In this document: positions 2,001-21,124 of the stretch, one piece after another
Numbering within the stretch: the stretch's first letter is position 1
Layout of the letters: every line of letters begins with the position of its first letter
NCBI GenBank assembly: GCA_000004695.1
Contig: CM000153.2
Location: 3,968,001-4,032,000 of the forward strand
DNA from: Dictyostelium discoideum
Taxonomy: Eukaryota
DNA length: 64,000 nt
Reading direction: 5' to 3'
The notes under the pieces: model-generated
Database searches by the model: none
Seen by the model: only the letters and a program-made list of their open reading frames with translations
What the model was told of the DNA's origin: nothing
Program-made: the position numbers and the translations under genes

Positions 2001-2862
2001 TTTAATAAATTATTGGAGGTAACAAAGACTTTTCTCAAGGAGTTTTTAATGTCGGTTCCTCAATAATTGAATAATAAAAAAAATAAAATTAAAGAATAAT
2101 ATAAAACAATTAAAAAAATAGATTTTTTATCTTTTTTGTAGTCAAAATTAACATATTTCTAATTTGATTTTAAAAACATTTACCAATATTAATAAATTAA
2201 CATAAAATAAACTATAAACAAATTCATTAGGAAAATATCCGTTATTTTATTTTTTCACAACTATAATTTTTTTTGTTAAATTAATTGCCTTTTTTTTTCG
2301 AATTTTTAATTGTATTATTACTTTTGATTAAAACATCTTTTTTGTCCAAACTTTTTTCTTAATCTTTTTTATTTTATTTGTGGTCGGCTTCGTGATTGAT
2401 GTTGATGACATATTTGAATTGTTTTATTTTATTTGTGTTTTGTCTTGGCTTATTTTTTGTAGGCATTTGTATTGCATAATATTTGTGGTGTTTTTGTTTT
2501 TTTTAAAAGTCTTTTTATTTGAAAAATGAAATAATCAAATAAAAGAGATTGTAGTTGTTGGTTCACTAAAATGGAGCCTATTTTTTTTTTTTTAATGACC
2601 TCATCCCAATTTATTTAATAGAGGAATTCAAAGCGAATTTAATGATTAAATAATGGTAAAATAAAAAATTTGTTAGGTAGTAGGGCCACTCACCCCCCTT
2701 TTATTTTAAGAGTTTTTCAAAAAAAAAAAATTTTAAGTAAAAGCAAGGTATTGGATCGATAACATTGAGATATATATATATGAAAAATATATGATCTAAT
2801 TCGGGATTGTCCTTTTGTTTTTTAGTTTTAATTTATGTAAATATAATATTTTTTCAACAAAT

Positions 2863-2935
2863 GCCCAGATAGCTCAGTCGGTAGAGCGCAAGGCTTTTAA
2901 CCTTGTGGTCGGGGGTTCGAGCCCCCCTTTGGGCG
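2863..2935 (+). tRNA. tRNA-Lys, anticodon UUU, 73 nt, no encoded CCA
   Basis: The sequence folds as a cloverleaf. Acceptor stem is GCCCAGA paired with TTTGGGC, D arm is GCTC-AGTCGGTA-GAGC, anticodon loop is CTTTTAA with anticodon TTT, T arm is GGGGG-TTCGAGC-CCCCC, and the discriminator is G. It is near-identical to eukaryotic tRNA-Lys(UUU). Confidence 0.95.
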
Positions 2936-2964
2936 AATTTTTCAAACCACTCAATATAAGTCGA

Positions 2965-18272: not shown

Positions 18273-19355
18273 TTATTTAAGTAATATACACCAATCAATA
18301 TTTGGATGAATTGTTTTTGAATCATTTGAAGTTGAAATAGACATATGACCAGAAAAGAATTCTGTATCATATTCTGTACCATTATCATCGATTAAGACTG
18401 GAACAGAGAGGAAACCTTTTGGAACTTCATTAGTATCAACAAATATCCATTCTGTTGTTAAATTTCCACAAATACCTCTATCGTATTTTTCTTTATTATT
18501 GCCTACCCATTTACCATTGTTATTGAATACACAAAATGCAGTGATCCAACCTGATAAATATCTTGGACCAGAACCACCACCTACTACATGAACAATACAA
18601 TTCCACCAGCATGTATCAGGGTTACCATTAACAGAATCAATTATATTATCAATGATTGGATGAAGTAATTCAGTCCAAGAGTTCATACAATTTCCATCTG
18701 GATTACCATCGAAATCAAATTCTTTTAATTTTTCAATTCTATTTTTAATATCGATCCAATCATTAATTGTACCTAAAACTGTAACCTCTGGTAAAGAACA
18801 TCTTAGTGACATTTTATATTCAAAGAAATTTTTAACTGATGCCATCAATGCAATTGAAGCTGCCATTGTATCATTTGGAGTTGATGTTGTGAATGGTTTA
18901 TTAGCCCATTCTCTAATTGATGGATCTTTAATATTCTTTTCAATTTGTTTTGTCATTAAATTTGTAAGTTGTTCATAGTTTGCTGTCATTAATGTACCAC
19001 CACCAACTACTTCTAATTGTTTCTTTCCTTCGAAATCAACTATCTTGTTTCTTAACTTTTCAGAGTTTTCATTCAAATATAATGAAAATTGTACTAAAAT
19101 TGCAATCCAAACATCATCAGGTTTAATTGTTAAACCATGATGATTATTATATGCTTGAAGGGATGATAAAATAAAAGAATTTCCTCCAACACTTTTTGAA
19201 ATTCCTTCTTTAATACTTGTTCTTACTATTTTTCTCTCTTTTGGTTGAGTTTTAATAAAACTCATTGATGGATCTAAATATAATTGTTTATGATCAAAAT
19301 CCTTTCCTTTAAATTCATTAAATTCTACATCTGAAACCTTAAATGTTATTGACAT
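18273..19355 (-). CDS. Hypothetical conserved protein, 360 aa, single exon
   Basis: A clean ORF with coding-like composition. No motif recognised with confidence; it may belong to a DUF-type family shared with fungi. Confidence 0.6.
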   Translation of the reverse strand: MSITFKVSDVEFNEFKGKDFDHKQLYLDPSMSFIKTQPKERKIVRTSIKEGISKSVGGNSFILSSLQAYNNHHGLTIKPDDVWIAILVQFSLYLNENSEKLRNKIVDFEGKKQLEVVGGGTLMTANYEQLTNLMTKQIEKNIKDPSIREWANKPFTTSTPNDTMAASIALMASVKNFFEYKMSLRCSLPEVTVLGTINDWIDIKNRIEKLKEFDFDGNPDGNCMNSWTELLHPIIDNIIDSVNGNPDTCWWNCIVHVVGGGSGPRYLSGWITAFCVFNNNGKWVGNNKEKYDRGICGNLTTEWIFVDTNEVPKGFLSVPVLIDDNGTEYDTEFFSGHMSISTSNDSKTIHPNIDWCILLK

Positions 19356-19535: not shown

Positions 19536-19625
19536 TTTTTTTCTATTTTTGTACAAATTTCTTTTATTATCATTATTATTAAAAATTAATATCTAAACCT
19601 AATAAAGATTTTACAATTTCTAATT
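19536..19625. repeat. About 90-bp direct duplicate of the 3' terminus (last 14 codons, stop, proximal 3' UTR) of the Rnl1-like gene. The second copy is 19678-19762.
   Basis: The two copies align at about 90% identity. They differ by a 9-bp tcattatta insert and a few substitutions. Confidence 0.8.
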
Positions 19626-19714
19626 AATTAATTAAAACAGTATTAAAAAAAAAAAAAAAAAAAAAATAAAAAAAAACTTTTTTTTTTTCTATTTTTATAC
19701 AAATTTCTTTATTA

Positions 19715-21124
19715 TTAAAAATTAATATCTAAACCTAATAAAGATCTTGCAGTTTCTAATTTTGAATTTGAATTTGTTAAATTTTTAATTCTTGACATTA
19801 ATTGTTTTGAAACTAAAGATAAATGTTTTGATAAGGTATCATTTTCATTAATTATTTCCCAATATTGATAAGAGAAAGTTTTAGCAGAATCTGTTAAATT
19901 ATTTTGAACTGGATGATTATGAAATAATTTCTTTGGAATTTGATTTTTCTTTGCATCTATAATTGTTAGAATAATACCTTGAGAAACTAAATCGATACGA
20001 TCAAATAAAATTTTAGAGAATTTTTCAATCTTTTGAATTTTCTCAGAAGGTTCTTCATTCTCATTTGTAATCATTTTAATTGTTTCTTTAACATCATCAT
20101 AATGACCACTTAATAAAATTGCCCAAACATCTTTTTCATGTTTAATAACTTTTGGTGAACGAAGTGATAATCTTGCCAATGTTATATACCACTCTGTCTT
20201 GATTTTATACATTTTACCTGAATTTTCAAATTTCAATACACAGCCCTCAATTAACTTCATTTGTTTTACAAGTTCAACTAATTCAATTGTACTTTTACAT
20301 GATTTAAATAACGATTGATCAGATGTTGTATCGATTAAATCCACCATTGGTATATTGAATGCTGTACATGTTTCTTGCAACTCTTTCCATTTTAAATATT
20401 CACCAGTGTGATTATTTCTAAGTGCTAAACATCTTAATCTCTCCTCACCATAGTATAATATAATTTGTTGTTTTGATGAACTATATTCAAATAGTGGTGT
20501 ATACCCTAACTGAATCCATTTCATTGAGAAATCATTATATTTAACTAACCCAATAGCTTCAATTCTATTCACATAATCATTTAACATTGTACCTAAATCA
20601 CTTATACCTTGTTTTGATCCCCAATAAACTTGACCTTTATTTAACATTGGTGCAATTAACGATCCATCAATTTTATCCATTAAAATATATGGTTCATTTA
20701 AATCAATAAATTCCTATTTTGGAAATAAAATAAAAAATTAAAATTTATTTAAAAAATATTTAAAATTAATTAATTATTATTTACTACTTACAGCTTTAAC
20801 TTCTTTAAATTCATTTATATTAAAAAATTTATGTAATTTTCTACATAATAATTTTTCTGTTTTTAAATCAAATATTAAACCTCTACATTCTCTTCTACAA
20901 CGTAAAAGGAATTGTTTCTTTTGATCTGGTTCTGATAATGGATCTGGAAATGATTCATCTGATAATGAATCATAATTAAAAACTATTGTATCATCTCTAA
21001 TTGATTCTCTAAATCCTGATACTCCTTTTATACATTCTCTTACATCATCTATTGTTAACCCTAAAGGATAATAATTTTTATTTCTTTCTCTATAAATTTC
21101 TTCTTCTGTTTGTTTTAATTCCAT
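19715..21124 (-). CDS. T4 Rnl1-family RNA ligase-like protein. Two exons, 21124..20792 and 20713..19715, about 443 aa.
   Basis: Nucleotidyltransferase motif I is ILMDKIDGSLI (T4 Rnl1 ILTKEDGSLV). Motifs IV-V are LIEGCVLKFENSGKMYKIKTEWY (T4 Rnl1 [20 protein letters not shown]). The intron is GTAAGT..AAATAG, 78 nt. Confidence 0.75.

What the first reader, a model, noticed from the sequence alone, without database searches (positions are those of the whole stretch)
19715..21124. Stand-alone T4 Rnl1-family RNA ligase in an amoebozoan genome
Motif I (MDKIDGSL) and motifs IV-V (EGCVLKF...GKMYKIKTEWY) match T4 RNA ligase 1 almost residue for residue (KEDGSL, EGYV...FKIKSDWY). Rnl1-type ligases are characteristic of phage and baculovirus RNA-repair systems and of the fungal and plant Trl1 ligase domain. 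A free-standing version with a 150-aa N-terminal extension and a spliceosomal intron is uncommon. It suggests an RNA repair or tRNA-restriction countermeasure function, or an old horizontal acquisition.
Basis: partly seen in the sequence, partly recalled or inferred. Interest (0 to 1): 0.55.

Follow-up and report, generated by a model that had tools for sequence, protein, structure and literature searches.

The report
Amoeba gene for T4-type RNA ligase
This is an intact, conserved Dictyostelium gene for an RNA-joining enzyme of the type used by phage T4 to repair cut tRNA; it is a real but already database-annotated member of a known enzyme family, and its job in amoebae has never been tested.

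Summary
Window 19715-21124 (minus strand) is a two-exon Dictyostelium discoideum gene with a 78-nt GT..AG intron, encoding 443 aa. It matches Pfam RNA_lig_T4_1 end to end (E 1.5e-40), and T4 Rnl1 is its best solved relative by sequence and by fold. Every catalytic residue checked is kept, with K125 as the AMP-accepting lysine.

Three points of the interpretation need correcting.
- There is no 150-aa N-terminal extension. T4's own lysine is at residue 99, and phage ligases align from residue 19.
- Fungal Trl1 ligase is now classed apart as Rnl6. This protein is far closer to T4 Rnl1 (profile E 8e-50 vs 1e-9) and has a T4-type helical C-domain.
- Free-standing is the normal state for Rnl1.

The gene is old and under constraint. 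It has two paralogues across Dictyostelia (98% bootstrap), a conserved intron position and dN/dS of 0.11. Relatives occur in other Amoebozoa and Heterolobosea. Phage relatives usually sit next to a polynucleotide kinase; none lies nearby here.

The most likely function is ATP-dependent sealing of broken tRNA or other loop RNA, which is inferred and untested. It is a new, uncharacterised member of a known kind, of modest interest.

The parts
20792..21124 (-). Exon 1 (codons 1-111). Encodes the Rnl1-type N-terminal sub-domain, including R81 (= T4 R54) and K99/F100/F101 (= T4 K75/F76/F77).
   Evidence: ORF and splice reconstruction. Residue mapping to T4 Rnl1. These residues are invariant in 17 homologues.
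20714..20791 (-). Spliceosomal intron, 78 nt, GTAAGT...ATAG, phase 0, very AT-rich.
   Evidence: Removing it gives an uninterrupted 443-aa product 99% identical to the NCBI model. The D. dimigraforme orthologue has a 108-nt intron at the same codon position.
19715..20713 (-). Exon 2 (codons 112-443 plus the stop at 19715-19717). Encodes the nucleotidyltransferase core and the helical C-terminal domain.
20660..20674 (-). Motif I, KIDGS (K125 D127 G128). K125 is the predicted AMP-accepting lysine.
   Evidence: Aligns with T4 K99-E-D-G-S. Invariant in alignment A1.
20486..20488 (-). Motif III glutamate, E187 (= T4 E159).
   Evidence: invariant in A1
20234..20248 (-). Motif IV, EGCVL (E267 G268 = T4 E227 G228).
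20186..20212 (-). Motif V, MYKIKTEWY (K281, K283, Y287 = T4 K240, K242, Y246).
19718..20173 (-). All-helical C-terminal domain (residues 292-443). It is the counterpart of the T4 Rnl1 C-domain that gives tRNA specificity.

Best explanation
The locus is a functional nuclear gene of Dictyostelium discoideum. It encodes a complete ATP-dependent RNA ligase of the Rnl1 (T4 RnlA) family: an N-terminal sub-domain, a nucleotidyltransferase core and a helical C-domain.

Mechanism, inferred from the family:
1. K125 attacks ATP to form ligase-AMP. R81 and K99 hold the gamma-phosphate, F100/F101 contact the adenine, and E187, E267, K281 and K283 handle the catalytic metal and alpha-phosphate.
2. AMP is passed to a 5'-phosphate RNA end.
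3. A 3'-OH end attacks and reseals the strand.

The C-domain is the T4 type, which in T4 directs the enzyme to breaks in tRNA anticodon loops. The most likely substrates are therefore nicked tRNAs or similar RNA loops of the translation apparatus, cut by stress nucleases or microbial ribotoxins. The ends would first be healed by kinase and phosphatase enzymes encoded elsewhere in the genome.

The gene is one of two paralogues that arose before Dictyostelia radiated. It belongs to a group of protist (Amoebozoa and Heterolobosea) ligases whose nearest non-eukaryotic relatives are Rnl1-like ligases of large phages.

Shown here: gene structure, family membership, intact catalytic residues, conservation and constraint, distribution, and the lack of a linked healing gene. 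Inferred: enzymatic activity, substrate and biological role.
For: - Family: Pfam PF09511 E 1.5e-40, full profile. PHROG 562, the T4 gp63 family, E 2.9e-48. T4 Rnl1 is the top solved relative by sequence (E 5e-19; profile E 7.8e-50 covering chain residues 52-369). It is also top by fold (Foldseek E 3e-18, TM 0.69-0.70), on a confident model (pLDDT 87.7).
- Catalytic residues: all 13 positions mapped from T4 are kept, and 12 of the 13 (all but K145) are invariant across 17 homologues. R54 and K75 are essential in T4 (PMC6379707).
- C-domain homology. T4's C-domain confers tRNA-loop specificity (PMC6379707).
- Genuine host gene: about 22% GC like its surroundings, an intron, and eukaryotic neighbours DUF4419, CorA, GWT1, Leo1 and MCM.
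- Constraint: dN/dS 0.11 against D. dimigraforme, with a conserved intron position.
- Phylogeny and distribution: orthologues and a second paralogue occur across Dictyostelia, with A+B monophyly at 98% bootstrap. Relatives occur in Physarum, Balamuthia, Nolandella, Pelomyxa, Flectonema, Willaertia, Acrasis and Pharyngomonas.
- Repair context in phage relatives: 56 of 80 viral loci have a same-strand P-loop kinase near the ligase, sometimes with a HAD_PNKP phosphatase.
- Link to the translation apparatus: two heterolobosean relatives are fused to an MCT-1-like pre-PUA/PUA module. I take this, from general knowledge, to be a 40S/tRNA-binding module.
- RtcB is reported in Dictyostelium (PMC13247085), so routine tRNA splicing does not need this enzyme.
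Against: - No biochemical or expression data exist for this protein or for any protist Rnl1.
- It scores below NCBI's strict equivalog cut-off for T4 RnlA (115.6 vs 242.25 bits), so identity of function with T4 Rnl1 is not assured.
- No healing partner was found in the window or in 7 eukaryotic loci, and the rest of the genome could not be searched.
- The ribotoxin-repair role is by analogy only.
Confidence: 0.6

Rival explanations
1. It is the sealing component of a yeast-type (5'-phosphate, 2'-PO4-dependent) tRNA-splicing and unfolded-protein-response pathway. On this view it is a stand-alone Trl1/Rnl6-like ligase, as in Mucorales and Branchiostoma, working with separately encoded kinase and cyclic phosphodiesterase enzymes.
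For: Stand-alone eukaryotic ligases with this role exist (PMC10946426, PMC3400036). Trl1-LIG structures are the second-best fold matches (E about 1e-8). Both families share the N-terminal sub-domain (PMC6379707).
Against: - The family profile matches T4 Rnl1 at E 8e-50 over the whole length. It matches Trl1 only at 1e-9 to 1e-5 and only within the nucleotidyltransferase part.
- Motif I is KxDG as in T4, not the KxNG of Trl1 (PMC6379707).
- The RxxR 2'-PO4 site after motif V is not conserved. Query RLSLR is RxxxR, and it is absent from the Tieghemostelium orthologue and from all B paralogues (sequences).
- The C-domain is the T4/phage type.
- RtcB is reported in Dictyostelium (PMC13247085).
Confidence: 0.1
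2. It is a catalytically active Rnl1-fold enzyme that amoebae use for something other than repair. Examples are programmed RNA circularisation or joining, or adenylylation of another substrate.
For: - The family expanded in protists: two paralogues in Dictyostelia, 3 or more in Balamuthia, 7 in Naegleria (PMC4408790). Expansion suggests diversified roles.
- It scores below the equivalog threshold.
- The C-domain has diverged from T4.
Against: No positive evidence. All ligation-step residues are kept, including Y287, the counterpart of T4 Y246. Phage relatives sit in heal-and-seal gene contexts.
Confidence: 0.15
3. It is not a working host gene. It could be a recent phage or bacterial insertion, assembly contamination, a decaying pseudogene, or a different nucleotidyltransferase such as a DNA ligase or capping enzyme.
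For: The nearest non-eukaryotic relatives are phage genes. A short duplication of the gene's 3' end lies just downstream.
Against: - It has host-like AT-rich composition, a spliceosomal intron and eukaryotic flanking genes.
- Orthologues with the same intron position occur across Dictyostelia, and dN/dS is 0.11.
- No viral relative exceeds 37% identity, while other Dictyostelia reach 45-61% and non-dictyostelid Amoebozoa about 36-40%.
- There are no DNA-ligase or capping-enzyme Pfam hits. Rnl2 (PF09414) scores only 18.8 bits, below its cut-off.
Confidence: 0.03

Closest known systems
Bacteriophage T4 RNA ligase 1 (Rnl1 / RnlA / gp63; PDB 2C5U, 5TT6, 9DO4)
   Same: - Same three-part architecture: N sub-domain, nucleotidyltransferase core and helical C-domain.
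- Same motif order and spacing.
- The ATP- and metal-binding residues checked are identical.
   Different: - Only about 21-25% identical.
- About 26 extra N-terminal residues and a longer C-domain (152 vs about 120 aa).
- Below NCBI's equivalog cut-off.
- Nuclear eukaryotic gene with an intron, and no adjacent Pnkp.
- T4's second role in tail-fibre attachment is irrelevant here.
Rnl1-like ligases of large phages of alphaproteobacteria and cyanobacteria (e.g. Sinorhizobium phage phiM12/phiM19, Roseobacter DSS3P8, Caulobacter phages) and related metagenomic phage contigs
   Same: - Collinear over query residues 19-438 at about 30% identity.
- They share the conserved N-terminal 'FP..T..DCREAIKG..GFRE' region and the C-domain (hhalign 99.7%).
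- They are closer to the amoebal protein than T4 Rnl1 is.
   Different: The phage genes are usually linked to a P-loop polynucleotide kinase, and sometimes a HAD phosphatase. The amoebal gene is not.
Protist Rnl1-family genes: the seven uncharacterised Naegleria gruberi Rnl1 members (PMC4408790), plus Balamuthia, Physarum, Pelomyxa, Willaertia and Acrasis homologues
   Same: They fall in the same similarity group (33-42% identity, full length) and are free-standing eukaryotic genes. None has been characterised biochemically, to my knowledge.
   Different: Copy number differs. Some heterolobosean members carry an extra MCT-1-like PUA module that the Dictyostelium protein lacks.
Trl1 ligase domain (Rnl6) and the stand-alone Mucorales and Branchiostoma tRNA ligases
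   Same: They share the adenylyltransferase domain with the Rnl1-like N sub-domain. They are eukaryotic, and some are stand-alone (PMC6379707, PMC10946426).
   Different: - Their C-domain is different.
- Motif I is KxNG.
- They have an RxxR 2'-PO4 site and require a 2'-PO4 end.
- The sequence relationship is much weaker (E 1e-9 vs 8e-50).

Membership tests
Rnl1 (T4 RnlA-type ATP-dependent RNA ligase) | Covalent nucleotidyltransferase motifs I (KxDG), III, IV and V, in order and with T4-like spacing | tested here: met
   K125-I-D-G, E187, E267-G268 and K281-x-K283 align with T4 K99, E159, E227-G228 and K240/K242. They are invariant in 17 homologues. PF09511 scores 139.9 bits against a 28.3 cut-off.
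Rnl1 (T4 RnlA-type ATP-dependent RNA ligase) | [quoted passage not shown] | tested here: met
   R81, K99 and F100/F101 align and are invariant. Their role in T4 is described in PMC6379707. The fold is shared in the AF2 model.
Rnl1 (T4 RnlA-type ATP-dependent RNA ligase) | The clade-defining all-helical C-terminal domain of T4 Rnl1 (families are defined by their appended domains, PMC6379707) | tested here: met
   For:
- Family profile aligns to T4 chain residues 248-369.
- hhalign of C-domains only: protist vs phage clade 99.7% (E 7e-26); phage clade vs T4 95.6% (E 1e-8); protist vs T4 directly 81% (E 1e-5).

Caveat: a protist-only profile search of PDB and Foldseek on the isolated domain both found nothing. 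Support is therefore real but modest.
Rnl1 (T4 RnlA-type ATP-dependent RNA ligase) | Equivalog-level similarity to T4 RnlA (NCBIfam TIGR02308 trusted cut-off) | tested here: not met
   115.6 bits against a cut-off of 242.25. It is a family member but not a close functional equivalent by that curated criterion.
Rnl1 (T4 RnlA-type ATP-dependent RNA ligase) | ATP-dependent lysine adenylylation and sealing of 3'-OH/5'-PO4 breaks, with preference for tRNA anticodon loops | not testable with these tools
   Needs recombinant protein assays.
Phage heal-and-seal tRNA repair system (Pnkp + Rnl1) | A polynucleotide kinase/phosphatase gene linked to the ligase | tested here: not met
   No kinase or phosphatase lies among the neighbours. 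A kinase HMM built from the phage neighbours finds nothing in the 64-kb window or in 7 eukaryotic loci, but finds 56 of 80 viral loci. An unlinked partner elsewhere in the genome could not be searched.
Trl1-LIG / Rnl6 (fungal-type tRNA ligase) | KxNG motif I, the Rnl6-specific C-domain with the RxxR 2'-PO4 site, and a KIN-CPD partner in cis or trans | tested here: not met
   - Motif I is KIDG.
- The profile match to Trl1 structures is confined to profile positions 73-267 (83-258 for most chains), at E 1e-9 or weaker.
- The arginines after motif V are not conserved among orthologues.
- There is no fused kinase or CPD domain.
DNA ligase / mRNA capping enzyme / Rnl2 | Best profile hit to those families | tested here: not met
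   There are no Pfam hits to DNA ligase or capping-enzyme families. PF09414 (Rnl2-type) scores only 18.8 bits against a 27 cut-off. Structural matches to DNA ligases are at E > 1e-3.

The most novel reading that the evidence does not exclude
Amoebozoa and Heterolobosea, which graze on bacteria, long ago captured a phage Rnl1 ligase and kept and duplicated it as an innate RNA-repair defence. On this reading it reseals tRNA or ribosome-associated RNA cut by bacterial or fungal ribotoxins.

Supporting hints are the MCT-1/PUA fusions in heteroloboseans, which would mark a ribosome-docked version, and a restriction-endonuclease-like DUF4365 gene beside the second Dictyostelium paralogue. This would be a eukaryotic counterpart of the phage anti-restriction tRNA repair system, and would parallel the horizontally acquired RNA ligases induced by a fungal pathogen in bdelloid rotifers (PMC11258130).
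Probability: 0.25. Interest if true: 0.6.

Novelty: new member of a known kind. Interest (0 to 1): 0.3.

Why it matters
RNA repair by Rnl1 is well understood only in phage T4, where it undoes host tRNA cleavage. A conserved, constrained and duplicated Rnl1 in a genetically tractable amoeba offers a practical system to ask what Rnl1-type repair does in eukaryotic cells that already have RtcB. Knock-outs, ribotoxin challenge and yeast complementation are all feasible. It would also help explain why bacterivorous protists such as Naegleria, Balamuthia and Dictyostelium accumulate RNA ligases. As it stands, the finding is a correct family assignment that public databases already carry, not a new kind of system.

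Tried and rejected
- A profile of the protist C-domains alone was searched against PDB sequences. T4 Rnl1 was not found.
- The second word-indexed protein search, using the family profile, added little taxonomic information.
- NJ bootstrap for a single eukaryotic clade gave 0% when two very divergent fusion proteins (P0030, P0200) were included, and only 31% without them. I therefore make no claim about one versus several transfers, or about direction.
- Balamuthia P0054 is named 'Polynucleotide kinase' by its source. It has no P-loop and no kinase Pfam hit, so it is not evidence for a kinase fusion.
- The long Heterostelium (861 aa) and Cavenderia (1276 aa) homologues look like gene models merged with neighbouring aminotransferase and kinase genes, not real fusions.
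- Neighbours of the second paralogue and of the Cavenderia orthologue were examined for a healing enzyme. None was found.
- Three papers could not be retrieved: the T4 Rnl1 mutagenesis papers and Burroughs & Aravind 2016.
- I ran no further search on the phage kinase. The word index would have been saturated by phage hits.

Full report
**What is there.** The window is about 22% GC throughout, and the best protein match is a Dictyostelium discoideum model, so the source is D. discoideum. On the minus strand an ATG at 21124 opens a 333-nt exon. A 78-nt AT-rich intron with GTAAGT...ATAG ends follows (20791-20714), then a 999-nt exon ending at the stop codon 19717-19715. The spliced product is 443 aa. 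It is 99% identical over its full length to an NCBI 'hypothetical protein' of D. discoideum.

**Family assignment.** Four lines of evidence agree.
- Pfam RNA_lig_T4_1 (PF09511) matches at E 1.5e-40 over the whole profile. The only other hit, the Rnl2-type PF09414, is below threshold.
- PHROG 562, the T4 gp63 'RNA ligase and tail fibre attachment catalyst' family, matches at E 2.9e-48.
- The only solved structures found by sequence are the T4 Rnl1 entries, at E 5e-19. A 17-sequence family profile raises this to E 7.8e-50 across T4 chain residues 52-369, while fungal Trl1 ligase domains reach only 1e-9 to 1e-5 and only in the nucleotidyltransferase part.
- An AlphaFold model (pLDDT 87.7) has T4 Rnl1 as its best Foldseek match (E 3e-18, TM 0.69-0.70). 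Trl1-LIG, archaeal Rnl3, Rnl2 and Rnl5 come next, with DNA ligases far behind.

**Catalytic competence.** Mapping onto T4 Rnl1 gives these equivalences:

| T4 Rnl1 | This protein |
|---|---|
| R54 | R81 |
| K75 | K99 |
| F76/F77 | F100/F101 |
| K99 | K125 |
| D101 | D127 |
| G102 | G128 |
| K119 | K145 |
| E159 | E187 |
| E227/G228 | E267/G268 |
| K240/K242 | K281/K283 |
| Y246 | Y287 |

Apart from K145, all are invariant in an alignment of dictyostelid, other protist and phage homologues. PMC6379707 records that T4 R54 and K75 contact the ATP gamma-phosphate and are essential, and that F76 contacts adenine. The other essential-residue assignments rest on my knowledge of the Shuman-lab mutagenesis papers, which I could not retrieve.

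- There is no 150-aa N-terminal extension. T4's own lysine is residue 99, the query's is 125, and phage and protist homologues align from about residue 19. The region is the normal Rnl1 N-terminal sub-domain plus about 26 residues.
- RNA ligase families are now defined by their appended domains, and fungal Trl1-LIG has been split off as Rnl6 because its C-domain differs (PMC6379707). Whether this protein has the T4-type C-domain is therefore the real membership test (next paragraph).
- Motif I here is KxDG (T4-like), not the KxNG of Trl1. The RxxR 2'-phosphate site of Trl1 has no conserved counterpart (sequences).
- 'Free-standing' is the normal state for Rnl1. Stand-alone eukaryotic ligases of this superfamily are on record in Naegleria (seven Rnl1-family genes), Branchiostoma and Mucorales (PMC4408790, PMC10946426, PMC3400036).

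**The C-domain test.** I examined the C-domain separately.
- A protist-only C-domain profile finds nothing in PDB.
- Foldseek on an isolated C-domain model (pLDDT 88.5) finds nothing.
- Profile-profile comparison of C-domains alone links the protist group to the phage group at 99.7% (E 7e-26). It links the phage group to the T4 C-domain at 95.6% (E 1e-8) and the protist group directly to T4 at 81% (E 1e-5).

I count the feature as met, with modest support.

**A real, old, constrained host gene.**
- The neighbours are ordinary eukaryotic genes: DUF4419, a CorA-type transporter, a BTB/pentapeptide protein, GWT1, a ZIP transporter, Leo1 and an MCM.
- Orthologues occur in D. dimigraforme (90%), D. 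purpureum (61%), Cavenderia (49%), Tieghemostelium (45%), Heterostelium and Acytostelium.
- A second paralogue (37-39% identity) occurs across the same range. The two paralogue groups together are monophyletic in 98% of NJ bootstraps, so the duplication predates the dictyostelid radiation.
- Against D. dimigraforme, dS is 0.44, dN is 0.049 and dN/dS is 0.11. The intron sits at the same codon.

**Wider relatives.** An exhaustive HMMER scan found 3,598 cluster representatives at E ≤ 1e-3.
- The closest non-dictyostelid hits are eukaryotic. They include Balamuthia (at least three copies), Physarum, Nolandella, Pelomyxa and Flectonema (Amoebozoa), and Willaertia, Acrasis and Pharyngomonas (Heterolobosea).
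- Metagenomic contigs carrying close relatives have clearly eukaryotic neighbours such as Mlh1, Ku, a Ras/Roc protein and a PB1-domain protein.
- The next group is phage. Three sampled contigs are phage-like and carry an AAA_33 kinase beside the ligase, one also with a HAD_PNKP phosphatase.
- The best annotated phage matches are Sinorhizobium phiM12-type, Roseobacter, Caulobacter and Synechococcus phages, at about 30% identity over residues 19-438.
- In IMG/VR no relative exceeds 37% identity.
- In NJ trees the protist sequences group together next to, or within, this phage assemblage, with T4 Rnl1 further out. Bootstrap support for a single eukaryotic clade is only 31%. An ancient phage- or bacterium-to-protist transfer is plausible but not demonstrated.

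**Partner enzymes.** A kinase HMM built from three phage neighbours detects a same-strand kinase in 56 of 80 viral loci. It detects nothing in the 64-kb window or in seven eukaryotic loci carrying relatives. The flanks of the second D. discoideum paralogue and of the Cavenderia orthologue also lack one. The rest of the Dictyostelium genome could not be searched with the tools available.

**Likely function.** From the family mechanism, the enzyme should self-adenylylate at K125, activate a 5'-phosphate RNA end and seal it to a 3'-OH. Several points bear on the substrate and role.
- T4's C-domain directs it to broken tRNA anticodon loops (PMC6379707).
- Phage relatives sit in heal-and-seal gene contexts.
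- Two heterolobosean relatives are fused to an MCT-1-like pre-PUA/PUA module (PDB 5ONS, E 2.7e-33). MCT-1 acts at the 40S subunit on P-site tRNA, as far as I know.
- RtcB, the usual tRNA-splicing ligase of animals, is reported in Dictyostelium (PMC13247085).

I therefore favour repair of nicked tRNA or other translation-apparatus RNA over routine tRNA splicing. The damage would come from stress nucleases or microbial ribotoxins. A comparable idea has been proposed for horizontally acquired RNA ligases that bdelloid rotifers induce on fungal attack (PMC11258130). All of this is inference; no biochemical or genetic data exist.

**Verdict.** This is an uncharacterised but database-annotated member of the Rnl1 family. 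Orthologues are named 'T4 RNA ligase 1-like N-terminal domain-containing protein' in UniRef, and the Pelomyxa homologue 'RNA ligase, T4 RnlA family protein'. It belongs to a protist group whose existence has been noted for Naegleria. Interest is modest and lies mainly in Dictyostelium as a tractable system for eukaryotic Rnl1-type RNA repair.

Noticed in passing
window 19546-19625 and 19682-19761: An 80-nt direct repeat (81% identity) copies the last 14 codons and 3' flank of the ligase gene about 136 nt downstream. tblastn also finds residues 430-443 again at 19623-19582. It is probably a small local duplication in the AT-rich intergenic region.
   Followed up: partly
P0074 (Acrasis kona, 603 aa) and P0115 (metagenomic single ORF, 629 aa); not in the window: These heterolobosean relatives carry a full Rnl1-type ligase followed by a pre-PUA + PUA module. 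That module is 2.7e-33 to human MCT-1/MCTS1 (PDB 5ONS), a 40S/tRNA-binding factor. An RNA ligase fused to such a translation-recycling module appears undescribed.
   Followed up: partly
L008 11914-13470 (D. discoideum, beside paralogue B at L008 10001-11611): The gene immediately downstream of the second Dictyostelium Rnl1 paralogue encodes a 518-aa protein with a DUF4365 domain (E 6e-11). As far as I know DUF4365 is a restriction-endonuclease-like domain, common in prokaryotes. A nuclease-ligase pairing is possible but was not examined further.
   Followed up: no
L011-L090 (IMG/VR loci), L001, L003, L004: In 56 of 80 viral loci the Rnl1-like ligase is followed on the same strand by a small P-loop (AAA_33) kinase. 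In L004 a separate HAD_PNKP phosphatase is also nearby. The healing functions are thus split into separate small genes rather than fused as in T4 Pnkp.
   Followed up: partly
P0015, P0195, P0030 (metagenomic proteins): There are non-eukaryotic fusion architectures. One is an AbiEii-type nucleotidyltransferase (PF08843) + Rnl1 ligase (695 and 597 aa). The other is a kinase + metallophosphatase + Rnl1 ligase (715 aa).
   Followed up: no
window 18273-19355 (-): The gene immediately downstream of the ligase encodes a 360-aa DUF4419 protein (E 1.3e-104), a family of unknown function.
   Followed up: no
window 2862-2936 (+): A tRNA-Lys(UUU) gene is the only tRNA gene ARAGORN finds in the 64-kb window. 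It is about 17 kb from the ligase, and there is no evident link.
   Followed up: no
P0054 (Balamuthia mandrillaris, 649 aa): This protein is named 'Polynucleotide kinase' by its source. It has no P-loop and no kinase domain hit, only the Rnl1 ligase domain behind a 195-aa low-complexity N-terminus. The name looks like a mis-transfer.
   Followed up: yes
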